Source: Candidatus Gastranaerophilales bacterium
Lineage (GTDB): Bacteria; Cyanobacteriota; Vampirovibrionia; Gastranaerophilales; Gastranaerophilaceae
NCBI GenBank assembly: GCA_944323045.1
Contig: CALUQX010000009.1
Location: 11,903-75,902, forward strand
Reading direction: 5' to 3'
Length of the DNA stretch: 64,000 bases
The notes under the pieces are model-generated. The model ran no database searches, was not told where the DNA came from, and was given only the letters and a program-made list of their open reading frames with translations. Position numbers and translations under genes: made by a program. Shown here in pieces: positions 4,537-63,918 of this stretch. Positions within the stretch are counted from its first letter, which is position 1. Each line of letters opens with the position of its first letter.

Positions 4537-5036
4537 AAACAAAAATTTACAGTAGACCGTATTTCCCAATCCGCCAGCACCACCACAAGCCAAAAACTTG
4601 TGAATAAATCAATAGTCCTATTAAAACCTACTTAATAAATAGAATTTATGCTAAATTAGCATTATGACAAAGAAAAAACATAAGGATAAAGAATTATGCC
4701 AAAAGATGAAGAATTAAACCAACAATTGAAGAACCACAAAATTCCTCTCCAAGGGGGAGGAAAAGAATTTGTTAGCGAATGTAATGAGCTTACAAATTCA
4801 GGAGGGGGTCAGACCAGTCCGCATTTATACACTGAGTGGTTGCTAAAGAAGTCCAATCACCCAAATTCGACCCAAAACAACTTGTTTCAGGGTCTAGCCA
4901 ACGTGACAGAGGTCGATGAGTTGAATACCCAAACAGTCGTCGCATTAGTGACCCCTCACCAAGAAAGGCTAGCCTCATTACATTCGTCAAGCCTTTCTAT
5001 CCTCTCCCGCAAGGGGCGAGGAGAACGTCATCCCGC

Positions 5037-5092
5037 AACAGGATTGCGGCAATACACAGAGATTGTGACCTTGCGGGATCTCAAAAGAAAAG
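5037..5092 (+). repeat. polar stem-loop element, copy 2 (identical to 4481-4536)
   Basis: About 60 nt identical to the copy 556 bp upstream, extending one base 5' and three bases 3' of the element. Confidence 0.85.
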
Positions 5093-5118
5093 TAGTAACA
5101 AAAAAGGAGAATAAAACA

Positions 5119-6246
5119 ATGAAACTAAACAACAACAAAGCAGTGGCTCAGACCAATTCCAGAAACGGACTTAACGTCCTAACGTCTTATCGTCTTAACG
5201 TCTTTGGAAGACGCTCCGCGTTTACCCTCGCCGAAGTCCTCATCACCCTTGCGATAATCGGCGTAGTGGCGGCGATAACGATACCAAGCCTTGTTAAGAA
5301 CTACAATGAGCATGCATGGTTAACCGCACAGGATGTGTTCACCAAAAGACTTGAAGTCGCAACCCGCCAAATGAACACCGAGGAAAAACTTGCGGGTTAC
5401 AGTTCGACAATGGATTTTGTAAACGAATTAAAGAAGAAAATCAAAATAACCAACGTATGCGATAGCAACAATTTGAGTAAATGCTTTGAAAGCACAATCT
5501 TAACAGCAGACGGTCAGGAAATAGATGCTACTAATTTAAAGACATCCGCCAAACTTGCCAAAGAGGATTGGGGAACGGAAACAGTTGGCGTGCAGTTTGC
5601 AAATGGAATAAATGCATTAATAGCATATAATCCGCAGACAGACCAACAACCGTTCAATAATCAGTTTAGTGCGACTGAGGCAAGCATGGCAATATTGTAT
5701 GACGTATCCGGACACAAAAATCCGAATACCTTAGGTAAAGACGTGAATCAGAACGCGAATGTTAAAAAATTAGGCTGTTATATTAAGCCGGATTTAGTAG
5801 GCGGTATGTGCATAAGCCAGATACTCGTCCCAGGAACAGGCTATAGCCCTATGACGAAAGCAGAATGCGACCAAGCAGTATCCGACGGAGAATTAGGGGT
5901 AAAGGCTTGCCAATATAATGATGATTATTGGGCAGGAGCAGTGAAAGCATGTGGAGGAATAAACAACATGCCAACAGAATCGCAATTAATAGACCTAGCT
6001 AAGTACGTATATAATACAGACAGTATAAACGGCGGAACAAGTACAACACATGCAACCTTAGACACAGAAAAAGCCTCTCAATTCCTCTCAGCATCCCCAT
6101 ATTCTAATTCGTTCTATGTTTGGTCTGGGCAGGAGAGCAGCAGCCTCGGCGCGTACTACCGCGACTTTCGCTATACCTACACGCTCTGGTACGACAGCAG
6201 CGCCCGCGACAGCAGCATCATACTCGCGGTTTGTCTTGACCAGTAA
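5119..6246 (+). CDS. prepilin-type N-terminal methylation-domain protein with lectin-like hypervariable C-terminus (paralog A)
   Basis: AAAAAGGAGA RBS before ATG 5119. AFTLAEVLITLAIIGVVAAITIPSL class-III signal/hydrophobic helix with E at +5. C-terminal YWAGAVKACGG..MPT..QL..LAKYVY...FYVWSG...AVCLDQ resembles the DUF1566/C-type-lectin-like layout. The ORF is open in frame back to 4696 (see findings). Confidence 0.85.
   Translation: MKLNNNKAVAQTNSRNGLNVLTSYRLNVFGRRSAFTLAEVLITLAIIGVVAAITIPSLVKNYNEHAWLTAQDVFTKRLEVATRQMNTEEKLAGYSSTMDFVNELKKKIKITNVCDSNNLSKCFESTILTADGQEIDATNLKTSAKLAKEDWGTETVGVQFANGINALIAYNPQTDQQPFNNQFSATEASMAILYDVSGHKNPNTLGKDVNQNANVKKLGCYIKPDLVGGMCISQILVPGTGYSPMTKAECDQAVSDGELGVKACQYNDDYWAGAVKACGGINNMPTESQLIDLAKYVYNTDSINGGTSTTHATLDTEKASQFLSASPYSNSFYVWSGQESSSLGAYYRDFRYTYTLWYDSSARDSSIILAVCLDQ
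6121..6243 (+). other. candidate DGR variable region (VR-A)
   Basis: GC-rich island in an AT-rich gene. By hand count, 24 of 30 codons in 6136-6225 end in C. Identical flanks in paralog B, with internal differences mostly at codon positions 1-2. Confidence 0.55.
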
Positions 6247-6261
6247 GAGGCGGAGCCTCTT
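6245..6261 (+). other. stop-codon-overlapping hairpin AAGAGGC-GGA-GCCTCTT (IMH/cruciform-like boundary)
   Basis: Perfect 7-bp stem. Identical copies sit at the 3' ends of paralogs B (24975-24991) and C (48389-48405, minus strand). Confidence 0.8.
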
Positions 6262-6780
6262 AATGGCGTGACTAGGTGATTAAGTGATTAGGTGATTAAG
6301 AGGATTTCAAAATGAGGCAATGCAAGAATCAAGCGTTGCCTTATTTTTATTAACTACTTAGTGCCTCAGTGCCTCAGTGCCTTAGTAACTTAGTAACTTT
6401 CAAGAGAGATCCCGCAAGGCGTCGAATCTAGCGTGACGCGTAAATGCCGCTGCGGGATGACATGGGGCGTTGGCTGCTCAATGTAACAACTGTTCACAGA
6501 TTACTGTTCACTGAGAACCGGTTCGTCGAAATGACAGCACCCTACGACTACGTTCATATTATTTGACCCCTCACCAAGTATTGACATTGCCTGTACTTCT
6601 TTAGCGGGCACCCAAAGTGTAAAAGCGGACTTGTCCGCCCCGCAAGGGGCGAGGAAAATTCAGCGTTGCCTGATTCATGTAACCCGCTTAATCACTTAAT
6701 CACCCAGTCACTTAATCACTTTTGTAACAACCGTTCACCGGTCTTGGTTAAAGCTTAACAAAATCAGGTACTCTGTTTTT
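6262..6780. repeat. mosaic interspersed-repeat region downstream of paralog A
   Basis: Concatenated modules: GTGATTAA 8-mers, a terminator-like hairpin, TAGTGCCT 8-mers, a polar stem-loop (6406-6463), GTTCAC 7-mers, the AGAACCGGTTCGTCGAAATGACAGCACCCTACGAC module (6514-6548) and a 93-nt module (6646-6738). Confidence 0.85.
6646..6738 (+). repeat. 93-nt conserved module (GGGGCGAGGAAAATTCAGCGTTGCCTGATTCATGTAACCCGCTTAATCAC...TTTTGTAACAACCGTTCAC)
   Basis: Identical by eye to 25315-25407. Partial reverse-complement copies at 41084-41159 and 33868-33919. Confidence 0.85.
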
Positions 6781-6921: not shown

Positions 6922-6993
6922 AGCGGGAGACGAGGCTCGAACTCGCGACATCCTCCTTGGCAAGGAGGCATTCTACCACTGAATTACCCCCGC
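6922..6993 (-). tRNA. tRNA-Gly (anticodon GCC)
   Basis: Reverse complement GCGGGGGTAATTCAGTGGTAGAATGCCTCCTTGCCAAGGAGGATGTCGCGAGTTCGAGCCTCGTCTCCCGCT folds as a cloverleaf. Anticodon loop is TTGCCAA; T-loop is GTTCGAGCC. CCA is not encoded. Confidence 0.9.
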
Positions 6994-14935: not shown

Positions 14936-16036
14936 CTATCCTTGTGCAGCAAAAGTTCCGTGGTAAACGCCGCGCAGCGCCTGCTGTAATTCATTTTTAT
15001 TATCTGAAAATTCTAAAGCAGTTTCCGGTGTTATGTATCCGGCTTTGCAAAGCTGGTACAAAGAAGTGTTCATTGTAATCATTTTGTTGAATGAACCTTT
15101 TTTAACCAGATCATAAATCTCTTCTAATTCATCTTTTACAATAAAATCTTTTACAGTAGAAGTGCACACAAGAATTTCACATGCCGGACGTCTGCCAGTA
15201 CCGTCTTGAGTAGGTACGAGTTTTTGAGAGACAGTACCGCGTAATATTTGTGCTAGCTGTTCTCTTACAAATTGTCTGTCTCCCGGGTCGAACATATTTA
15301 CAATACGGTTAACTGTTTGTACAGCATCATTAGTGTGGATTGTTGCGTATACGAGGTGACCGGTTTCAGCAGCTTTGAGGGCGCTGATAATTGTTTCTTT
15401 ATCTCTTATTTCGCCGATAAATATAACATCAGGATCCTGACGCAATGCGTATTTTACCCCGTCAGGGAAAGACGGAGTATCAAGTAGAATCTGTCTTTGA
15501 GAGACAATACTCATATTGTTGGTAAAGATAAATTCAACCGGATCTTCTATTGTAATAATATGTTTTGCATAGTGATTGTTAATATAGTCAATCAAAGATG
15601 CGATAGTTGTAGATTTTCCGCTGCCTGTCGGACCTGTAATAAGTACAAGACCGTTATTTAGCATCGAAAACTGACTCATAGCAGCAGGAAGATTTAATTC
15701 TTTAATATCTTTGATTTTATAAGGAATAACACGAATAGCAAGCGCTCTGTGGTTCAACTGTCTGCTTGTGTTTACCCTGAAACGTGAACAGCCCGGTATT
15801 TCAAAAGAAAAGTCGAGGTCAAGATATTGTTCATAATTAGATTTTAAATGTTTTGGAACAAGCGTTTCCAAACTTCTATTAAGGTCATCATCGGTCAGTG
15901 TCGGCATTTCAGTAAATTTAAAAATTTCACCGTCTTTTCTCATGCACGGGTATTCTTCTACATACAGGTGTGCGTCCGATGCACCTATCGCAACAATGTT
16001 CCTTAAAAATTCTATTATATCAAAATCTTTCATCAT
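14936..16036 (-). CDS. pilT: type IV pilus twitching-motility ATPase PilT
   Basis: Walker A GPTGSGKST, Asp box, Walker B (DPDVIFIGEIRD), His box and the PilT signature AxxTGHLVxxTxHT. Start set at MMKDF (GGGAGA RBS) rather than the ORF-track start 16069. Confidence 0.9.
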   Translation of the reverse strand: MMKDFDIIEFLRNIVAIGASDAHLYVEEYPCMRKDGEIFKFTEMPTLTDDDLNRSLETLVPKHLKSNYEQYLDLDFSFEIPGCSRFRVNTSRQLNHRALAIRVIPYKIKDIKELNLPAAMSQFSMLNNGLVLITGPTGSGKSTTIASLIDYINNHYAKHIITIEDPVEFIFTNNMSIVSQRQILLDTPSFPDGVKYALRQDPDVIFIGEIRDKETIISALKAAETGHLVYATIHTNDAVQTVNRIVNMFDPGDRQFVREQLAQILRGTVSQKLVPTQDGTGRRPACEILVCTSTVKDFIVKDELEEIYDLVKKGSFNKMITMNTSLYQLCKAGYITPETALEFSDNKNELQQALRGVYHGTFAAQG

Positions 16037-16336
16037 ACTTCTCCCATAATACAGAATTATAACATCCAAATTATGCTTGGCAAAAATGCAAAGTTATGTA
16101 AAGCGGTAGGGTAATAACAAATTTATTTGTAACAAAAGTTTAACAAAAGACATAACACTGGCAATTTTTATCCGCCGAAATACTTTATTAAAATGTAAGG
16201 GAAATTTAAGATTAATAAAAAGGATTTTAATTGGATATTTAGAATAATCAAATAATTCTTCACGATGTAAGAAAAAAGATTATAAGAAAAGTTTATTTTT
16301 ATACTCTCTCTCTTAATATCCTCGTGTTTATTTAAT

Positions 16337-23403: not shown

Positions 23404-23836
23404 CTCATCGGTCAGTCAGTAGACCGTATTTCCCAATCCGCCAGAACCAACACAAGCCGAAAGCTTGTGCATAAGTCAATAGTCCTATTAAAGCCTACTT
23501 AATAAATAGAATTTGTGATAAATTAGTATTATAACAAAGAAAACATAAGGATAAAGAATTATGCTAAATGATGAAGAATCAAATCAACAATTGAAGAACC
23601 ACAAAATTCCTCTCCGTGGGGGAGGAAGAAATTTGTTGCCGAACGGAGAGAGGCTAGAAATTTCAGGAGGGGGTCGGACCAGACCACATATAGTCCCCCC
23701 ACCCGAACCACTAAACTCACGAAAGTTCGTTAAGTGGTTCCGCCCTCCCCTCAGGAGAGGGCACCAAGCCAACCACGAGGAAACAATCAGTAATACACAA
23801 TCAGAAGATAGAAACAACAGAAAGGAGCAACTCCAA

Positions 23837-24976
23837 ATGAAAACCAAAAACAAAATCAACGAATCAACCGCTCAGACCAATTCCAGAAACAACGGTACTC
23901 ACCATACTCACTTCACTCACTTAGTCACGTCCCCAAAAGCCGCGTTTACCCTCGCCGAAGTCCTAATCACCCTCGCAATCATCGGCGTAGTAGCGGCGAT
24001 AACGATACCGAGCTTAGTCAAGAATTACAATGAAAAGGCATGGGAAAGTGGACAAAAAGTTTTTGAAAACAGATTACTTGTAGCTACACGTCAGATGAAC
24101 ACAGAGGAAAAATTGGCAGGTTATTCTTCAACCATGGACTTTGTGAATGAGTTGAAAAAATATATTAAAATAACCCGTGTCTGCGATAATGACAACATTA
24201 CCAAATGCTTTAATAAAGAAGTAATCTGGAGTGCTGATGAAGAGCCGGTAGACATGTCAAAAGTAACAGATGCATCAGCTTTTGGTCTGGATTGGGAGAC
24301 TGATACGGTAGCAGTTCAGTTTGCGAACGGTGTAAATGCAGTAATTGCTTACAATCCGAATGCAACACAAGACCCATATAATAACCAGTTTGCGGCGACC
24401 TCAAAATCCATGGCAATATTGTATGATTTGTCAGGAAACAAGAATCCGAATACAAATGGTAAGGATATAAAAAATATAAATGTAGACCAGTTAGCCGGTG
24501 TAGAAGGCTGTTTGATACCTGAGTTAAAAGATACAATGTGCATAACGAAAATTATATCTCCGGAAGAATACGGATATTTATCATATTCAGAATGTACCGA
24601 GGCTAAGAATAACGGCGAAATAGACGTAGATGCATGTTATAATGGCTCAAGTCCAGATTATTTTGCGGGCGCAGTAAAAGCATGTGGAGGTAAGAAAGCA
24701 AACTTACCAAGCCAAGACCAGCTAACGCAGCTAGCAAAATATGTATATGGAACAGACAGTATAAACTCCAGCGGTTATACATATGACCTAGCTTTAGACA
24801 CAACCAAAGCCTCCCAATTCCGCTCAGCAAGAGGTACTGATTACTTCTATGTTTGGTCTGGGCAGGAGTATAGCCGCGACCGCGCGTACTTCCGCTTCTT
24901 CTACTCTACCGGCACGAACGGGAACGACTGCAACCGCCACTACAGCTACGCTCTTGCGGTTTGTCTAGACCAGTAA
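23837..24976 (+). CDS. prepilin-type N-terminal methylation-domain protein with lectin-like hypervariable C-terminus (paralog B)
   Basis: AAAGGAG RBS before ATG 23837. AFTLAEVLITLAIIGVVAAITIPSL. Central 79 aa identical to paralog C. C-terminal FYVWSGQE...AVCLDQ. The ORF is open in frame back to 23561. Confidence 0.85.
   Translation: MKTKNKINESTAQTNSRNNGTHHTHFTHLVTSPKAAFTLAEVLITLAIIGVVAAITIPSLVKNYNEKAWESGQKVFENRLLVATRQMNTEEKLAGYSSTMDFVNELKKYIKITRVCDNDNITKCFNKEVIWSADEEPVDMSKVTDASAFGLDWETDTVAVQFANGVNAVIAYNPNATQDPYNNQFAATSKSMAILYDLSGNKNPNTNGKDIKNINVDQLAGVEGCLIPELKDTMCITKIISPEEYGYLSYSECTEAKNNGEIDVDACYNGSSPDYFAGAVKACGGKKANLPSQDQLTQLAKYVYGTDSINSSGYTYDLALDTTKASQFRSARGTDYFYVWSGQEYSRDRAYFRFFYSTGTNGNDCNRHYSYALAVCLDQ
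24853..24973 (+). other. candidate DGR variable region (VR-B)
   Basis: By hand count, 22 of 29 codons in 24869-24955 end in C. Flanks identical to VR-A. Confidence 0.55.
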
Positions 24977-24991
24977 GAGGCGGAGCCTCTT
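24975..24991 (+). other. stop-codon-overlapping hairpin AAGAGGC-GGA-GCCTCTT
   Basis: Identical to 6245-6261. Confidence 0.8.
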
Positions 24992-25540
24992 AATGGAGGC
25001 ACTAAGTTACTAAGGCACTAAGGCACTAAGGATTAAATTGAAATAAGGTAATGTGAAACGCGCACATTGCCTTATTTTTTGTAAAGAACTTGTTCCCTTA
25101 ACAACAAGCAATGTGGAAAATTCCACGTTGTCTGTTGTTGTAACTACTTAGTGCCCTAGCCCCCTAGTGCCTTAGTAACTTCTGTTTCTGAGATCGCGCA
25201 ACTGCTTGGTTGCTCGCAATAAACGGGTCTACGGGCTGCTCCGCCGGCTCCACGCCGCCGTGTGCGCCCTGCGCCCTCTGCTCGCAATCCGCAAGTGCGC
25301 GATGACATGGTATAGGGGCGAGGAAAATTCAGCGTTGCCTGATTCATGTAACCCGCTTAATCACTTAATCACCCAGTCACTTAATCACTTTTGTAACAAC
25401 CGTTCACTGTTCACCGTTCACAATTCACAGAGAACCGGTGCGTCGAAACGACAGCACCCTACGAATAACTTCTTTAGCCGCCACCCAGAGTATAAGAGTA
25501 GGCTACGCCTACCTGCGCCTACCCACTTGTAAATGTTTTG
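24992..25540. repeat. mosaic interspersed-repeat region downstream of paralog B
   Basis: Same module set as 6262-6780 in a different order. It also holds a polar stem-loop (25190-25310) whose loop is a very GC-rich ~100-nt insert. Confidence 0.85.
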
Positions 25541-48009: not shown

Positions 48010-48388
48010 GAAAAGTGAAGAGAGTGAGTGATGTGAGTAAGGTGAGTGTAGTGAGTAAAGTGTTTACAAGTCGTAGGGTGCCGTCGTTTCGACGAACCGA
48101 TTTTCTGTGAACAGTGACCTGTGACCAGTGAACGGTTGTTTTGGAAAAGACGTTAGGACGATAAGACGTGTCTTGGATTTGCCCCACGCTCGGAAAGTTT
48201 CGCTTTTGAACCTGCGGTTCAACTCCGCTCAATTTCCTCGCTATCCGGATTTGTGCCTTCGGCACTCCATCCGTGCGCAAATCCGCTAAGTCCGTTAAGA
48301 AGAAACAGGCAATGTGGAAAAGCCTACGTTGTCTGTTGTTGTAACTACTTAGCCCCTTAGTGCCTTAGTAACTTAGTGCCTTTCCATT
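48010..48388. repeat. mosaic interspersed-repeat region downstream of paralog C
   Basis: GTGAGTNNN 9-mers (48015-48060), the GTCGTAGGGTGCCGTCGTTTCGACGAACCG module (48070-48099), GTGAAC/GTGACC units, ACGTTAGG units and TTAGTGCC units. Confidence 0.8.
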
Positions 48389-48405
48389 AAGAGGCTCCGC
48401 CTCTT
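48389..48405 (-). other. stop-codon-overlapping hairpin (same as at paralogs A and B)
   Basis: AAGAGGCTCCGCCTCTT on the plus strand, which is the reverse complement of AAGAGGCGGAGCCTCTT. Confidence 0.8.
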
Positions 48406-49516
48406 AATGGTCAAGACAAACCGCGAAGAATTTTTTGTTACGGTTGTCGTAGCGCGGACCTGTGCTGGTATAGCCGAAGTGTCTAGCGTCCTCTGCGGTA
48501 GATGACCAAACATAGAACCGTTCAGAATATGATGTTAAAGCTGAGAGGAATTGGTCTGCTTTTTCTGTATCTAATGTTATGCCTGATACACTCTTATGGG
48601 CGTCTATTGTGAATTTCAAATTATATAAATATGTCGCTAGTTCGCCTAGATGTGTCATTGTTGGCATGTTGTTTATTCCTCCGCATGCCGCCACTGCCCC
48701 TGCCCAATAATCATAGTCAGACGTACATTTGTTTATACCTAAGTCTTCCTTTTGTTCTTCACATAGAGCTTTACTTAATGGGCTATACAGTGAGAGTATT
48801 TGAGTTATGCAAAATCCTACTTCGTCTTCTGGCAGCAAGCAGCCTGTTACGCCTGCTAGTTGGGTTACATTTGCGTTATGGGCAATGTCTTTGCCGTTGG
48901 TATTCGGATTTTTGTTGCCGGAGACATCGTAAAGTATCGCCATGCTGTTACTTGTGGCGTTGAACTGGTTATTATACGGGTCTTGGGTCGCATTCGGATT
49001 GTAGGCAATTACTGCATTTACGCCATTCGCAAATTGCACTGCCACCGTATCAGTCTCCCAATCCAGACCAAAAGCTGATGCATCTGTTACTTTTGACATG
49101 TCTACTGGTTCCTCATCAGCACTCCAAATAACTTCTTTATTAAAGCATTTTGTAATATTGTCATTATCGCAGACTCTTGTGATTTTAATATATTTTTTCA
49201 ACTCATTCACAAAGTCCATGGTTGAATTGTAACCGGCTAGTTTTTCCTCTGTGTTCATTTGTCTTGTGGCTACCTCAAGGCGTTTTTCAAAGACATCTTT
49301 TGCGGTTAACCATGCATGCTCATTGTAATTTTTCACTAGGCTTGGTATCGTTATCGCTGCCACCACGCCGATGATTGCGAGGGTGATTAAGACCTCTGCC
49401 AAAGTAAACGCGGCTTTTGGGGAAGTGATTAAGTGAGTGAAGTGAGTACGGTGAGTACCGTTGTTTCTGGAATGGGTCTGAGCCATGGCTTCGTTGATTT
49501 TGTTGTTAGTTTTCAT
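48404..49516 (-). CDS. prepilin-type N-terminal methylation-domain protein with lectin-like C-terminus (paralog C)
   Basis: Start chosen by homology to paralog B (…CAACTCCAAATGAAAAC); the ORF track extends to 49564. AFTLAEVLITLAIIGVVAAITIPSL. C-terminal FYVWSS...AVCLDH. Confidence 0.85.
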   Translation of the reverse strand: MKTNNKINEAMAQTHSRNNGTHRTHFTHLITSPKAAFTLAEVLITLAIIGVVAAITIPSLVKNYNEHAWLTAKDVFEKRLEVATRQMNTEEKLAGYNSTMDFVNELKKYIKITRVCDNDNITKCFNKEVIWSADEEPVDMSKVTDASAFGLDWETDTVAVQFANGVNAVIAYNPNATQDPYNNQFNATSNSMAILYDVSGNKNPNTNGKDIAHNANVTQLAGVTGCLLPEDEVGFCITQILSLYSPLSKALCEEQKEDLGINKCTSDYDYWAGAVAACGGINNMPTMTHLGELATYLYNLKFTIDAHKSVSGITLDTEKADQFLSALTSYSERFYVWSSTAEDARHFGYTSTGPRYDNRNKKFFAVCLDH

Positions 49517-62886: not shown

Positions 62887-63918
62887 ATGAGTGTTAACAC
62901 TTTTTTTATCCTGATAGGCTTTGTATTTATTATTGGCTTATGTATAGGAAGTTTTTTAAATGTTGTTATTTTACGGGCGCTGTCAAATGAATCTATTATC
63001 TTTCCGCCGTCAAAATGTCCTGTATGCGGAAACAGTCTGAAATGGTGGCATAACATTCCTGTATTGTCTTATATTCTACTGAAGGGCAAATGCGGGTTCT
63101 GTAAATGTAAAATCAGTATTCAATATCCGATTGTAGAACTTTTAACAGGAATTTTATTCACATTTGTATTCATTAAATTTTTTATAGGCTCCGCAATATT
63201 AACCGGAATAACTGCAGGTACATATATTAATACAATTTATGCATGGATAGTTATATCCCTGCTAATTGTTATGGCAGTAACTGATATAAAAGAAAAAGTT
63301 GTGTTTGATGCGCACACATATTCTCTGATTGGCGCCGGACTTGTTTATGCAATGCTTATCACGGGTTCTGCAATATATTTTAGTTTAACAAGCACAGGCA
63401 AACTGCCGCTGAATACATCTTTCCTTATAAACAATCCTCTGACAGATGCATTATTAGGTCTTGCTGCAGGAGTTATTATAATGGAACTTCTTGCGCGTAG
63501 CGGATATCTATTCGCTGGCACAAGGGCTTTTGGTGAAGGTGATACCTTCATTGCTGCAGGTATCGGGGCTGTCTTTGGCTGGAAAAAGCTTATCGCGGCT
63601 CTGGTCTTAAGTATAATAATCCAGCTTATCATCACATTACCATTATTTTTGAAAAAATTATTTGACAACAAGGAGTATTTTACATTTGGAACGCTTTCAG
63701 GTTTCTTCATTTATGCGGCGGCATTTTTGATTCTGCAAAGCAAAGGACTGCTTTCAAATAGTATTGTATATTTAGTTGCGGCTGTTTTACTTGCAATCAT
63801 CGGAATTACTGCCTGCATTAACATTATTAAAGGTATTAAAAGCAATCCGGATAACATGATTTATCTTCCATTTGGACCGGCTATGGCTATTGCGGCTTTA
63901 ATTATGATTTGCATATAA
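62887..63918 (+). CDS. pilD: prepilin peptidase / N-methyltransferase (A24 family)
   Basis: N-terminal CPVCG...CGFC zinc motif. Polytopic membrane protein with two conserved Asp motifs (VTDIKEK; GEGDTFIAAGIGAVFGW). Confidence 0.85.
   Translation: MSVNTFFILIGFVFIIGLCIGSFLNVVILRALSNESIIFPPSKCPVCGNSLKWWHNIPVLSYILLKGKCGFCKCKISIQYPIVELLTGILFTFVFIKFFIGSAILTGITAGTYINTIYAWIVISLLIVMAVTDIKEKVVFDAHTYSLIGAGLVYAMLITGSAIYFSLTSTGKLPLNTSFLINNPLTDALLGLAAGVIIMELLARSGYLFAGTRAFGEGDTFIAAGIGAVFGWKKLIAALVLSIIIQLIITLPLFLKKLFDNKEYFTFGTLSGFFIYAAAFLILQSKGLLSNSIVYLVAAVLLAIIGITACINIIKGIKSNPDNMIYLPFGPAMAIAALIMICI

What the first reader, a model, noticed from the sequence alone, without database searches (positions are those of the whole stretch)
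6121..6261. Paralog A ends in a GC-rich NNC-codon hypervariable cassette, the signature of a DGR target
The gene is AT-rich, but the ~30 codons before the conserved AVCLDQ-stop tail switch to about 61% G+C (hand count 55/90). 24 of those 30 codons end in C (AGC AGC AGC CTC GGC ... TAC GAC AGC AGC GCC CGC GAC AGC AGC ATC). Against paralog B (24869-24955) the flanks are identical: TTCTATGTTTGGTCTGGGCAGGAG upstream and GCGGTTTGTCT(T/A)GACCAGTAAGAGGCGGAGCCTCTTAATGG downstream. Inside, most differing codons differ only at positions 1-2 and keep C at position 3 (AGC/CGC, CTC/GAC, GGC/CGC, TAC/TTC, GAC/TTC, CGC/TAC, TAC/GGC, CTC/AAC, TAC/AAC, AGC/TGC, AGC/AAC, GAC/CAC, AGC/TAC, ATC/TAC). Adenine-specific mutagenesis of AAC codons in a template repeat produces exactly this pattern in characterised DGR targets (Bordetella phage Mtd, Treponema TvpA, Legionella LdtA). 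In those proteins the VR also lies at the extreme C-terminus of a C-type-lectin/DUF1566-like fold and is followed by a GC-rich IMH and a hairpin. The unusual part here is the scaffold: a prepilin-type protein that would be processed by PilD and assembled into a pilus or pseudopilus.
Basis: partly seen in the sequence, partly recalled or inferred. Interest (0 to 1): 0.85.

Follow-up and report, generated by a model that had tools for sequence, protein, structure and literature searches.

The report
Retroelement-diversified tail of pilin-like protein
The last ~40 codons of this gene from a gut Melainabacteria relative are a hypervariable cassette of the kind written by a diversity-generating retroelement (DGR), carried on a type IV pilin-like surface protein that has expanded to more than 20 copies per genome. 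The retroelement is not in this window, but I found it, with a matching template, in sister genomes.

Summary
In 6136-6225, 24 of 30 codons end in C and G+C is 61%, against 24% C-ending codons in the gene body. The flanks are identical to those of paralog B. A third paralog, C (48404-49516, minus strand), has a degenerate tail.

The genes belong to a family of more than 3,000 prepilin-type proteins in Candidatus Gastranaerophilales, with 23 loci in one MAG. Their tails share a rigid, adenine-poor backbone interrupted by about 15 NNC codons.

From the column statistics I predicted the template repeat (TR) and then found it. Contigs L058/L059 and L073-L080 carry bAvd, a TR (...AAC AAC GCG TAC AAC CGC AAC TTC AAC CCT ACC AAC ACG AAC TGG AAC AAC AAC AAC CGC...) and a DGR-type reverse transcriptase (RT). 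A family gene sits immediately upstream.
- 92 of 92 mismatches between TR and cis variable regions (VRs) fall on TR adenines. At a sister locus the count is 72 of 73.
- Remote VRs show 19/19 and 22/22.

Caveats:
- The window holds no TR or RT.
- Its own TR was not recovered. The nearest sister TRs leave 7-8 non-adenine mismatches.
- VR-A and VR-B are nearly invariant between sampled strains.

They are therefore DGR-written remote targets. Whether they are still being diversified in this genome is not shown.

The parts
5119..6246 (+). Paralog A, a prepilin-type family protein of 375 aa counted from the ATG at 5119. The open frame runs upstream to 4696 and some gene callers use that start.
   Evidence: PF07963 N_methyl scores 24.7 bits (cut-off 21.2) at residues 31-54. 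The 516-aa ORF call is P0122, present on 5 contigs including an 87,187-nt contig that the collection lists under NCBI.
5209..5280 (+). Prepilin N-terminal cleavage/methylation motif and hydrophobic helix (SA|FTLAEVLITLAIIGVVAAITIP), with Ala rather than Gly at position -1.
   Evidence: The family profile matches solved type IV pilins only over this helix.
6112..6240 (+). VR-A, the stretch homologous to the sister TRs (TTC TAT GTT TGG ... GCG GTT TGT CT). The hypervariable core is 6136-6225.
   Evidence: blastn to the L058 TR gives 73% identity with one 3-nt gap. 21-23 mismatches fall on TR adenines against 8 elsewhere.
6223..6240 (+). Candidate IMH, the invariant 3' end of the TR/VR homology (CTC GCG GTT TGT CTT GA).
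   Evidence: TR and VR sequences run together through GCGGT(T/G)TG(C/T)(C/T)T(A/G/T)G and then diverge. The IMH function is inferred, not tested.
6240..6266 (+). Hairpin overlapping the stop codon (CCAg TAAGAGGC gga GCCTCTTA aTGG).
   Evidence: DNA fold -11.3 kcal/mol, z = -3.8. Compensatory stem variants occur in other family members (GAAGAC/GTCTTC, GAGGAC/GTCCTC, GAGGGGC/GCCCCTC). No TAAGAG-type hairpin is seen in copies with under 50% C-ending codons.
23837..24976 (+). Paralog B, a prepilin-type family protein of 379 aa.
24845..24970 (+). VR-B. The hypervariable core is 24869-24955.
   Evidence: Against the L058 TR there are 28 mismatches, 21 on TR adenines. The 7 others are backbone variants (TCT, TAT, CGC, TCT, GGG, CTT, TGT).
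24970..24996 (+). Post-VR hairpin of paralog B.
   Evidence: z = -3.4.
48404..49516 (-). Paralog C (370 aa). Its tail (48411-48517) is a degenerate VR, six to seven codons shorter, with ordinary codons (GCA, AGA, ACA, AAA AAA).
48384..48410 (-). Post-VR hairpin of paralog C, with the same 3' flank as A and B.
   Evidence: z = -5.2.
62887..63918 (+). Prepilin peptidase (PilD-type), the enzyme expected to process these proteins.
   Evidence: PF06750 A24_N_bact and PF01478 Peptidase_A24 on this exact protein.
14936..16069 (-). Type II/IV secretion-system ATPase (T2SSE family), a candidate pilus motor.
   Evidence: PF00437, E = 9.5e-45.

Best explanation
Window 6112-6240 (and 24845-24970 in paralog B) is the variable region (VR) of a remote target of a diversity-generating retroelement (DGR).

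A cassette elsewhere in the genome encodes bAvd, a template repeat (TR) and a DGR reverse transcriptase (RT). The TR carries the same backbone, with AAC at each variable codon. The TR RNA is reverse-transcribed with random misincorporation opposite template adenines. The resulting cDNA replaces the VR. By analogy with characterised DGRs, this homing would be guided by the conserved 3' end (GCG GTT TGY CT...) and the hairpin that follows it.

AAC can become any NNC codon, giving 15 possible amino acids and no stop codon. The 14 AAC codons of the recovered TR therefore allow about 15^14 (roughly 3e16) variants on a fixed scaffold. Backbone residues are protected because they are encoded with almost no adenines.

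The scaffold is a 375-aa protein with a prepilin-type N-terminus, a middle domain and a C-terminal lectin-like domain of about 115 aa. The last four strands of that domain carry the VR. The protein is probably cleaved by the PilD encoded in the window and displayed on a type IV pilus or pseudopilus-like fibre as a ligand-binding subunit.

Shown here:
- the VR pattern;
- the existence of the cassette and TR in sister genomes;
- adenine specificity;
- between-sample VR turnover at cis targets;
- the prepilin motif and PilD.

Inferred:
- that this genome has its own cassette;
- that A and B are still being diversified;
- pilus display and ligand binding.
For: 1. VR anatomy. About 15 NNC codons alternate with invariant codons across 14+5 family members. 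Third-position A is 4% in VRs against 38% in gene bodies. Ala is GCG 84%, Arg is CGC 82% and Val is GTT 76% in VRs, against GCA, AGA and GTA in bodies.
2. Decoupling from gene divergence. VR identity stays at about 0.5 (backbone only) from 55% to 95% body identity. L047 and L048 show 1 mismatch in about 930 nt of body, then 22 mismatches at codon positions 1-2 of NNC codons.
3. The predicted TR was found. TR-encoded ORFs P0130, P0140, P0143, P0144 and P0203 have Asn at all variable positions.
4. Cassette context:
- L058: bAvd (PF22296; NCBIfam DivGenRetAVD, E = 1e-17), TR, RT (PF00078).
- The RT is 33% identical to Bordetella phage Brt, E = 7e-47, and shares the IG.LTSQ.F.NVY and RY(V/M)DD motifs.
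5. Adenine test:
- Remote VRs: L007 19/19, L022 22/22, L046 22/22, L011 21/22, L030 20/22.
- Cis VRs: 72/73, P = 4e-31, and 92/92.
6. Activity in nature. The TR is identical in nine samples and differs by one base in a tenth, while the cis target has seven different VRs. L061 and L062 show 18 differences in 3.7 kb, 17 of them in the VR.
7. Same lineage. L079 is a contig of MAG BRZ_DF__bin62, which also holds family loci L001, L022, L030, L038 and L046.
8. Window VRs against sister TRs. 20-24 of 27-32 mismatches fall on adenines, P about 1e-4. L064's TR has the AAC AGC AAC AAC AAC 5' part that fits A and B.
9. Hairpin after the VR.
10. Prepilin motif, PilD and T2SSE ATPase.
Against: - No TR (blastn with word 7, plus an adenine-tolerant scan) and no RT or Avd (YxDD scan; tblastn with Brt and with the lineage's own RT) were found in the 64-kb window. 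None was found in the roughly 10 kb beyond its left end either.
- The window's cognate TR was not recovered. The closest sister TRs leave 7-8 non-adenine mismatches, mostly T/C third-position or backbone variants.
- VR-A and VR-B look static in nature:
  - A's exact protein is on 5 contigs.
  - A's only variant differs by one base (GAC to GGC).
  - B's variant has an identical VR despite a different leader.
  - Other family loci keep identical VRs through 7-9 body substitutions.
- Paralog C has the same 3' flank and hairpin but is not diversified.
- Pfam DUF1566 and FGE give no hit, and Foldseek matches are not significant.
Confidence: 0.9

Rival explanations
1. Orphaned (fossil) VRs. The tails of A and B were written by a DGR in the past, but in this genome they are no longer homed into. 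Either the cassette or the matching TR was lost, or the IMH drifted. They now evolve by point mutation only. This is a sub-case of the main explanation for origin and a rival for present-day function.
For: - The VRs are nearly invariant between strains. The only difference is a single base, whereas a homing event would re-randomise many sites.
- There are 7-8 non-adenine differences from the nearest TRs, four of them C-to-T at third positions, as AT-biased decay would give.
- The family shows a continuum of C-ending codon content from 0.83 down to 0.06, suggesting that many copies decay.
- Paralog C looks like an end stage.
- The cassette is absent from the syntenic HAD locus in two other MAGs.
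Against: - The A/B backbone variant (TCT ... NNC AGC NGC ... TCT ACC ... TGT) recurs in at least 4 other genomes or samples (L002, L010, L019, L044, L047, L048) with third-position C intact. That fits a distinct living TR better than independent decay.
- C-ending codon content of 0.76-0.80 is as high as in VRs that match a TR perfectly.
- DGR activity is typically sporadic, so identical VRs in a few samples are weak evidence.
Confidence: 0.3
2. Recombination or gene conversion among the many paralogs (cassette swapping, as in Neisseria pilE/pilS), rather than a retroelement, generates the tail differences.
For: - The loci are mosaics. L047 and L048 differ after the VR as well (a different stop context and a 36-nt indel) and in 5' blocks.
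- B's strain variant has a wholly different leader.
- One pair has 70-75% body identity and an identical VR.
- Short dispersed repeats flank the genes.
Against: - Shuffling cannot create the NNC pattern, the adenine-free backbone or the invariance of third-position C.
- Seven different VRs sit on an otherwise identical cis target next to an invariant TR, with 92/92 adenine-specific mismatches.
- Recombination is best seen as an additional layer, not the source.
Confidence: 0.04
3. Ordinary paralog divergence with diversifying selection on a binding surface.
For: Surface adhesins often evolve quickly, and the variable residues map to the C-terminal strands and loops of a confident model.
Against: - Selection on protein cannot fix synonymous third-position C in a 37% G+C genome whose own bodies prefer A/T-ending codons.
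- It cannot keep backbone codons identical at synonymous sites while bodies are 55-60% identical.
- It cannot saturate variable sites independently of body divergence.
Confidence: 0.01

Closest known systems
Treponema denticola TvpA and Legionella pneumophila LdtA DGR systems (bacterial, chromosomal or ICE-borne; DUF1566/CLec-type targets, several remote targets per TR)
   Same: - Avd-TR-RT cassette.
- VR at the extreme C-terminus of a small lectin-like domain.
- AAC codons in the TR.
- One TR serving a cis target plus remote targets on other contigs (L022, L030 and L046 in MAG BRZ_DF__bin62).
- A sister cassette (L068-70, RT 68% identical) carries the classical DUF1566-type template WSSSENNTNNAYNVNFDNGNVNNNNKNNQNSVVC. 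It is colinear with this family's WSGQEYSQNNAYNRNFNPTNTNWNNNNRNNSNKLAVC.
   Different: - The N-terminal export and anchoring device is a prepilin-type signal, not a lipoprotein or Tat signal.
- The domain is too divergent for Pfam DUF1566 to score.
- Copy number is much higher, with 23 loci in one MAG.
- The host is Candidatus Gastranaerophilales, for which my searches found no DGR paper.

Properties of TvpA and LdtA are taken from my own knowledge.
Bordetella phage BPP-1 Mtd/Brt/Avd, the prototype DGR
   Same: - The RT is 33% identical to Brt (E = 7e-47) and shares motifs.
- An Avd homologue is present.
- The order avd-TR-RT downstream of the target matches the BPP-1 annotation.
- Adenine-specific mutagenesis.
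- A hairpin follows the VR.
   Different: - Cellular rather than phage: backbone and TR patterns are absent from IMG/VR.
- Many targets instead of one.
- The target is a pilin-like protein, not a tail-fibre tip.
- The IMH here is short and not a 14-bp G/C block.
Bacteroides DGRs that diversify type V pilus adhesins (bioRxiv 10.1101/2024.11.15.621889)
   Same: A gut commensal uses a DGR to vary the adhesive component of a pilus.
   Different: - Type V pili are assembled by strand exchange after lipoprotein export. Here the N-terminus is a type IV (class III signal) prepilin motif, processed by an A24 peptidase.
- The phylum is different.
- I read only the title and abstract of that paper.
GspG-type pilin domains listed among rare VR-bearing domains in a DGR survey (PMC11661182), and 'putative pilin structures' linked to DUF1566 targets (cited in PMC6642488)
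   Same: These appear to be the same combination of a prepilin or pseudopilin N-terminus with a DGR VR.
   Different: They are only mentioned in passing. No family, copy number, lineage or mechanism is described. I did not open the supplementary table.
Neisseria pilE/pilS antigenic variation
   Same: A type IV pilin-class protein has its C-terminal region hypervaried, and many dispersed partial or complete copies exist.
   Different: Neisseria uses RecA-dependent gene conversion from silent cassettes. Here the primary generator is adenine mutagenesis by reverse transcription from one TR, with recombination as a secondary layer only. The Neisseria mechanism is from my own knowledge.

Membership tests
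DGR target gene (variable region) | A TR elsewhere that matches the VR except at TR adenines | tested here: met
   Met for the family: 92/92 and 72/73 at cis targets; 19/19, 22/22, 22/22, 21/22 and 20/22 at remote members. For the window's own VR-A and VR-B only sister TRs were available: 20-24 adenine-site against 7-8 other mismatches, P about 1e-4. Strictly, then, the result for these two copies is inconclusive.
DGR target gene (variable region) | A DGR-clade reverse transcriptase encoded next to the TR | tested here: met
   PF00078 RTs lie adjacent to the TR in L058-L064 and L068-L080. Identity to Brt is 33%, E = 7e-47, with the IG.LTSQ motif. None is in the window.
DGR target gene (variable region) | Accessory protein Avd in the cassette | tested here: met
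   PF22296 bAvd lies upstream of the TR in most of the recovered cassette loci (the shortest contigs do not reach that far). NCBIfam DivGenRetAVD gives E = 1.1e-17, 64 bits, below the curated cut-off of 80.
DGR target gene (variable region) | TR and RT present in the same genome as this VR | not testable with these tools
   Only the 64-kb window, about 10 kb to its left and about 2.6 kb to its right were reachable. The rest of the MAG holding the 87-kb contig could not be read. The same-genome criterion is met for MAG BRZ_DF__bin62.
DGR target gene (variable region) | VR at the 3' end of the ORF, followed by an IMH and a hairpin/cruciform | tested here: inconclusive
   The VR ends 6 codons before the stop. 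TR/VR homology ends at GCGGTTTG(C/T)CT. A stable hairpin with compensatory variants follows. The IMH is short, not G/C-only and functionally untested. Roughly half of the class-1 copies show another type of 3' flank.
DGR target gene (variable region) | Ongoing diversification: population heterogeneity confined to the VR | tested here: inconclusive
   Shown for the cis targets of sister genomes. For the window's A and B, the strain variants have identical VRs or differ by one base. No read-level data were available.
C-type-lectin / DUF1566-type DGR variable domain | Sequence match to PF07603 (DUF1566), PF09603 or FGE-sulfatase models | tested here: not met
   No Pfam or NCBIfam hit on the C-terminal half at E up to 1. 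The family profile against PDB sequences hits only pilin N-termini.
C-type-lectin / DUF1566-type DGR variable domain | CLec-like fold with the VR forming the C-terminal strands | tested here: inconclusive
   - The domain model is confident (pLDDT 91.8, pTM 0.88), with the VR on the last four strands.
- Foldseek finds nothing at E <= 0.001.
- The weak PDB hits include Lcl C-terminal domain 8q4e (E = 2.8, TM 0.33-0.37), CLEC12A and invasin InvE.
- In the viral library, 7 of the top 20 hits are DUF1566 or Fib_succ_major domains (best of these E = 0.15; best hit overall E = 0.087).
- The TR is colinear with a classical DUF1566-type TR in a sister cassette.
Type IV pilin-like (prepilin-type) proteins | N-terminal cleavage/methylation motif with Glu at +5 and a hydrophobic helix | tested here: met
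   PF07963 scores 24.5-24.7 bits (cut-off 21.2) and TIGR02532 scores 23.1-23.7 bits (cut-off 16.3) in A, B and C. FTLAEVLITLAIIG is invariant. The profile matches solved pilins over this helix.
Type IV pilin-like (prepilin-type) proteins | Gly at position -1 of the peptidase cleavage site | tested here: not met
   All three have Ala at -1 (SA|FTLAE, AA|FTLAE) after an unusually long leader of 33-35 residues. From my own knowledge, Ala at -1 is tolerated by some prepilin peptidases. Processing is therefore plausible but unproven.
Type IV pilin-like (prepilin-type) proteins | Cognate prepilin peptidase and assembly ATPase in the genome | tested here: met
   An A24 peptidase lies at 62887-63918 and a T2SSE ATPase at 14936-16069.
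Type IV pilin-like (prepilin-type) proteins | Incorporation into a pilus or pseudopilus fibre | not testable with these tools
   This needs pilus preparations with proteomics, or imaging.

The most novel reading that the evidence does not exclude
Gut Gastranaerophilales may maintain a repertoire system. One or a few chromosomal DGR cassettes would act in trans on 20 or more dispersed, individually flanked genes for pilus-displayed lectin-like subunits. Each copy would hold a different binding site drawn from about 1e16 possibilities. A second layer, recombinational swapping of leaders and tails between copies, would reassort them. Several sister TRs with slightly different backbones would partition the family into separately addressable subsets within one genome. 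That would be the largest DGR target family on a type IV pilin scaffold, and a cell-surface recognition repertoire in a poorly understood human gut lineage.
Probability: 0.35. Interest if true: 0.7.

Novelty: new member of a known kind. Interest (0 to 1): 0.55.

Why it matters
Gastranaerophilales are common but little-studied human and animal gut bacteria, and little is known about how they interact with host or food surfaces. This work points to a large, DGR-diversified family of type IV pilin-like proteins with a lectin-like tip. With it come the cassette, the exact template and natural evidence of turnover.

That gives a concrete hypothesis for adhesion or recognition in this lineage. It extends DGR targets to the type IV pilin class in a lineage for which my literature searches found no DGR report. 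It also offers a compact scaffold of about 115 residues with 14 or more randomisable positions that could be studied or engineered.

For annotation, the result explains why short-read assemblies of these genomes break at these genes. It also explains why the genes are called with inconsistent starts.

Tried and rejected
- **TR inside the window.** blastn with word size 7, plus a scan tolerating mismatches only at template adenines, on both strands, found nothing.
- **RT inside the window or in the first 46 related loci.** Nothing came from a six-frame YxDD/SQ motif scan, Pfam on the four RT-like candidates (a HAD hydrolase, FHIPEP, a phosphoglucomutase, and one with no hit), or tblastn with BPP-1 Brt and Avd. 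The cassette of MAG BRZ_DF__bin62 was missed only because the locus fetched (L046) covered the other end of that contig.
- **AAC-rich stretches in the loci.** Only VRs turned up.
- **Pattern scans of public collections.** The all-AAC predicted TR and the backbone with Ns gave 0 hits in both IMG/VR and JGI metagenomes. The JGI set lacks the whole family, so this was uninformative.
- **Full-length structure for Foldseek.** The disordered leader and multi-domain query gave only noise plus a weak Lcl hit. The domain-only model was confident but still had no significant match.
- **The window's own TR through closer RT relatives** (P0277, P0279, P0280, P0281, P0396). This gave four further TR types, none with the exact A/B backbone. 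The P0277 contigs start too close to the RT to include the TR.
- **Word-index search with TR-ORF P0130.** It returned only itself.
- **Rfam.** Only a tRNA.
- **Rejected idea: the one-codon length difference between A and B argues against a common type of TR.** VRs one codon shorter occur under an invariant TR.
Full report
**1. The observation**

At 6121-6261 the sequence is as described.
- Between GAG and GCG GTT TGT there are 30 codons, and 24 of them end in C.
- G+C is 0.61 in the tail, against 0.44 for the gene and 0.37 for the window.
- C-ending codons make up 24% of the gene body.
- Paralog B (23837-24976) has the same features.
- The 15-nt upstream and 41-nt downstream flanks are shared exactly, with 0.36 and 0 matches expected by chance.
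- The downstream flank revealed a third paralog, C (48404-49516, minus strand). Its tail is six to seven codons shorter and uses ordinary codons.
- A, B and C are about 60% identical overall, yet their first 60 mature residues are almost identical.

**2. What the proteins are**

All three score above threshold for the prokaryotic N-terminal methylation motif: PF07963 24.5-24.7 bits and TIGR02532 23.1-23.7 bits.
- The motif is (A/S)A|FTLAEVLITLAIIG. It follows a leader of 33-35 residues, has Glu at +5, and has Ala instead of the canonical Gly at -1.
- A family profile matches solved type IV pilins only over this helix.
- The window also encodes the prepilin peptidase (62887-63918; A24_N_bact and Peptidase_A24) and a T2SSE ATPase (14936-16069).
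- The rest of the window is ordinary chromosome: triosephosphate isomerase, ketol-acid reductoisomerase, MutS2, a CTP synthase next to the peptidase, and ORFs I read as PlsX and FabH from the sequence without scoring them.
- The three family genes sit singly among these housekeeping genes.

**3. The family**

A genome scan returned 46 loci, all in Candidatus Gastranaerophilales MAGs, 23 of them in one MAG, BRZ_AS__bin11. The large protein database holds more than 3,000 relatives. The tails fall into two classes.

Class 1, G+C-rich, has this pattern:

GTT TGG TCY GGG CAG GAG TAY AGY CAG NNC NNC GCG TAC NNC CGC NNC TTY NNC YCT ACC NNC ACG NNC TGG NNC NNC NNC NNC CGC NNC NNC AGC NNC nnn CTC GCG GTT TGY

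- NNC positions 1 and 2 take all four bases, with A often the commonest. Position 3 is invariant C.
- Third-position A falls from 38% in gene bodies to 4% in VRs.
- Invariant residues switch to adenine-free codons: GCG, CGC, GTT, CTC, ACC/ACG.

Class 2, A+T-rich, lacks all of this and looks decayed or never targeted. There is a continuum of C-ending codon content from 0.83 to 0.06.

VR identity stays at about 0.5, the backbone alone, from 55% to 95% body identity. VRs coincide only between near-identical copies. Ordinary divergence or selection cannot produce this.

**4. Finding the template**

- The window contains no TR and no RT. Neither do the flanks of the first 46 loci.
- Pattern scans of JGI metagenomes and IMG/VR found neither TRs nor VRs, so those collections simply lack the lineage.
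- A VR-only profile searched against 1.84 billion representative proteins did recover ORFs called across TRs. P0130 reads MTFYVWSGKEYSQNNAYNRNFNPTNTNWNNNNRNNSNKLAVCLG. This is the predicted template, with Asn at every variable position. Four sister versions were also found.
- Its contig, L058, carries bAvd (383-754), the TR (about 950-1080), an RT of 381 aa (1124-2269) and a convergent HAD hydrolase.
- The RT is 33% identical to Bordetella phage Brt (E = 7e-47) with the DGR-typical IG.LTSQ.F.NVY and RY(V/M)DD motifs. The Avd matches NCBIfam DivGenRetAVD.

**5. The adenine test**

The TR core is 114 nt and 36% A.
- Remote family VRs with the same sub-backbone show 19/19 (L007), 22/22 (L022), 22/22 (L046), 21/22 (L011) and 20/22 (L030) mismatches at TR adenines.
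- Relatives of the RT led to complete chromosomal loci with the order family gene, bAvd, TR, RT:
  - L060-L063 are contigs of 43-179 kb. L062 has a second target after the RT.
  - L073-L080 are contigs of 14-28 kb.
- At L060-63, 72 of 73 TR-VR mismatches are at adenines (P = 4e-31).
- L061 and L062 come from different samples. They differ at 18 positions in 3.7 kb, 17 of them in the VR.
- Across L058, L059 and L073-L080 the TR is identical in nine samples and differs by one base in the tenth. The cis target has seven different VRs, with 92 of 92 mismatches at adenines.
- Two of those VRs are one codon shorter within the AAC run. One-codon length differences, like that between window A and B, therefore arise under a single TR.
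- L079 is contig CALUQJ010000023.1 of MAG BRZ_DF__bin62. That MAG also supplied L001, L022, L030, L038 and L046. One genome therefore holds the cassette, a cis target and at least three remote targets that match its TR.

**6. The window's own VRs**

- Against the closest TR (L059 type), VR-B has 20-21 adenine-site mismatches and 7 others (TCC to TCT, TAC to TAT, CAG to CGC, CCT to TCT, TGG to GGG, CTC to CTT, TGC to TGT). VR-A behaves similarly, with one extra codon (P about 1e-4).
- L064's TR begins GAG AAC AGC AAC AAC AAC, the template form of A's GAG AGC AGC AGC CTC GGC and B's GAG TAT AGC CGC GAC CGC.
- The A/B backbone (TCT ... AGC NGC ... TCT ACC ... TGT) recurs in L002, L010, L019, L044, L047 and L048.
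- I therefore infer a sister TR of that type, which I could not retrieve.

Between strains the VRs barely change.
- A's exact product is on 5 contigs, including an 87,187-nt contig listed under NCBI.
- Its one variant differs by GAC to GGC.
- B's variant has an identical VR but a different leader.
- Other loci keep identical VRs through 7-9 body substitutions.

A and B are therefore DGR-written, but present-day diversification in this genome is not demonstrated.

**7. The 3' end**

TR and VR run together through GCGGT(T/G)TG(C/T)(C/T)T(A/G/T)G and then diverge.
- In A, B and C a hairpin follows, CCA.TAAGAGGC-GGA-GCCTCTTA.TGG, overlapping the stop codon (z = -3.4 to -5.2).
- Other members carry compensatory versions (GAAGAC/GTCTTC, GAGGAC/GTCCTC, GAGGGGC/GCCCCTC) or a different hairpin (GCGCGATTTT-tccag-AAAATCGCGC).
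- No TAAGAG-type hairpin is seen in copies with under 50% C-ending codons.
- This resembles the IMH-plus-hairpin target signal of characterised DGRs (my own knowledge). Its function here is inferred.

**8. Fold**

The C-terminal 150 residues model confidently (pLDDT 91.8, pTM 0.88), with the VR on the last four strands.
- Foldseek gives nothing significant.
- The weak PDB hits include the Legionella Lcl C-terminal domain (which I take, from my own knowledge, to be the founder of DUF1566), CLEC12A and invasin InvE.
- In the viral library, 7 of the top 20 hits are DUF1566 or Fib_succ_major domains.
- Pfam does not detect DUF1566.
- A sister cassette (RT 68% identical) has the classical DUF1566-type template WSSSENNTNNAYNVNFDNGNVNNNNKNNQNSVVC. 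It is colinear with this family's template.
- I regard the domain as a divergent DUF1566/CLec-type variable domain. Membership by fold remains inconclusive.

**9. A second layer**

The loci are mosaics.
- L047 and L048 share about 930 nt with a single mismatch but differ in 5' blocks and after the VR.
- Leaders can be swapped.
- One pair has an identical VR on bodies 70-75% identical.
- Dispersed repeats flank the genes.

Recombination reshuffles modules but cannot create the NNC pattern.

**10. Comparison and novelty**

- Mechanistically this is a standard DGR of the bacterial DUF1566-target type, like Treponema TvpA and Legionella LdtA, with cis and remote targets.
- What is less usual is the prepilin-type scaffold, the copy number and the host lineage.
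- The scaffold has been listed only in passing in surveys (PMC11661182 and PMC6642488).
- Bacteroides DGRs diversify type V pilus adhesins (10.1101/2024.11.15.621889), which is a different pilus class.
- My literature searches found no paper linking DGRs with Melainabacteria or Gastranaerophilales.
- I file it as a new member of a known kind, of moderate interest.

**Verdict**

Confidence is 0.9 that 6112-6240 is a DGR variable region on a prepilin-type protein. I put the chance that its cassette is present and still acting in this genome at about 0.6.

Noticed in passing
window 4550-5118 and 23417-23836: A conserved upstream element of 270-570 nt precedes paralogs A and B (88% identical over 276 nt). 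It is open in frame with the gene, so gene callers extend the ORFs to 516 and 471 aa. Strain variants differ mostly in its first ~15 codons (MPKDEELNQQLKNHK against MPKAEESNQQLKTHK). The first ~20 residues of another locus (P0107, P0109, P0112, P0113, P0116) vary in the same way. Its role is unknown; it could be a promoter, a leader RNA or a mobile module.
   Followed up: partly
window 6267-6400, 24997-25185, 48330-48383: Arrays of 7-9-nt repeats (GGCACTAAG / GTGATTAAG) lie downstream of each paralog. Their reverse complements (CTTAGTGCC) follow 60-150 nt further on, bracketing a terminator-like hairpin. Related ACTCACT-type repeats lie inside the leader-peptide coding region (NGTHHTHFTHL).
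   Followed up: no
window 6645-6738 and 25314-25407: A 94-nt segment is 100% identical downstream of A and B. Further short shared segments occur nearby (6489-6547 / 25406-25464 / 48069-48140). These are dispersed repeats flanking the family genes and may serve as recombination substrates.
   Followed up: partly
P0124 against P0125 (paralog B and a strain variant); P0084 against P0090; L047 against L048: There is modular mosaicism. An identical body and VR can carry a completely different leader. A near-identical VR can carry a different post-VR tail (GESD against DQ). The same body can carry different 5' blocks.
   Followed up: partly
L073 952-1062 and L076 489-599: Two cis-target VRs are one codon shorter than their invariant TR, with the loss inside the AAC AAC AAC AAC run. 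This suggests slippage during cDNA synthesis or integration on the AAC repeat.
   Followed up: partly
L062 11704-12966, compared with L060, L061 and L063: One sample has an extra family gene (420 aa) inserted directly after the RT, in place of a 72-aa ORF. This is a presence/absence polymorphism of a target next to the cassette. Its tail (...GFYSVYTGWGSNGYRDDSTPTLWAVCVGE) does not fit the local TR well.
   Followed up: no
L004 2571-3362 and L029 11078-11869, compared with L058 2284-3078: The HAD hydrolase that abuts the RT in L058, L059 and L073-L080 has orthologues 84-87% identical in MAGs BRZ_AS__bin11 and BRZ_E__bin153, with no RT hit anywhere in those two loci. The cassette's location, or its presence, therefore varies between species.
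   Followed up: partly
L058 968-970 compared with L059 and L073-L080: The TR itself is polymorphic at one base (AAG in L058, CAG elsewhere), in the WSGQE segment just upstream of the hypervariable core.
   Followed up: no
L060-L063, L058 and L064, first ~150 nt after the avd stop: The stretch between avd and the TR starts with a conserved G+C-rich sequence (CAGGGAGTGCGCTTTTCATCACGTGG..CCGGTAA..C...GAGGGTAACC) shared by cassettes whose RTs are only 74-76% identical. This may be a structured part of the DGR RNA.
   Followed up: no
window 6922-6993 (minus strand): A tRNA gene (Rfam, 63.5 bits) lies about 680 nt downstream of paralog A.
   Followed up: no
L054-L057, L050-L053 and many of L001-L046: Short-read metagenome contigs of this species repeatedly end at or just beside the family genes. 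The family is therefore a systematic assembly breakpoint and is probably under-counted in MAGs.
   Followed up: no
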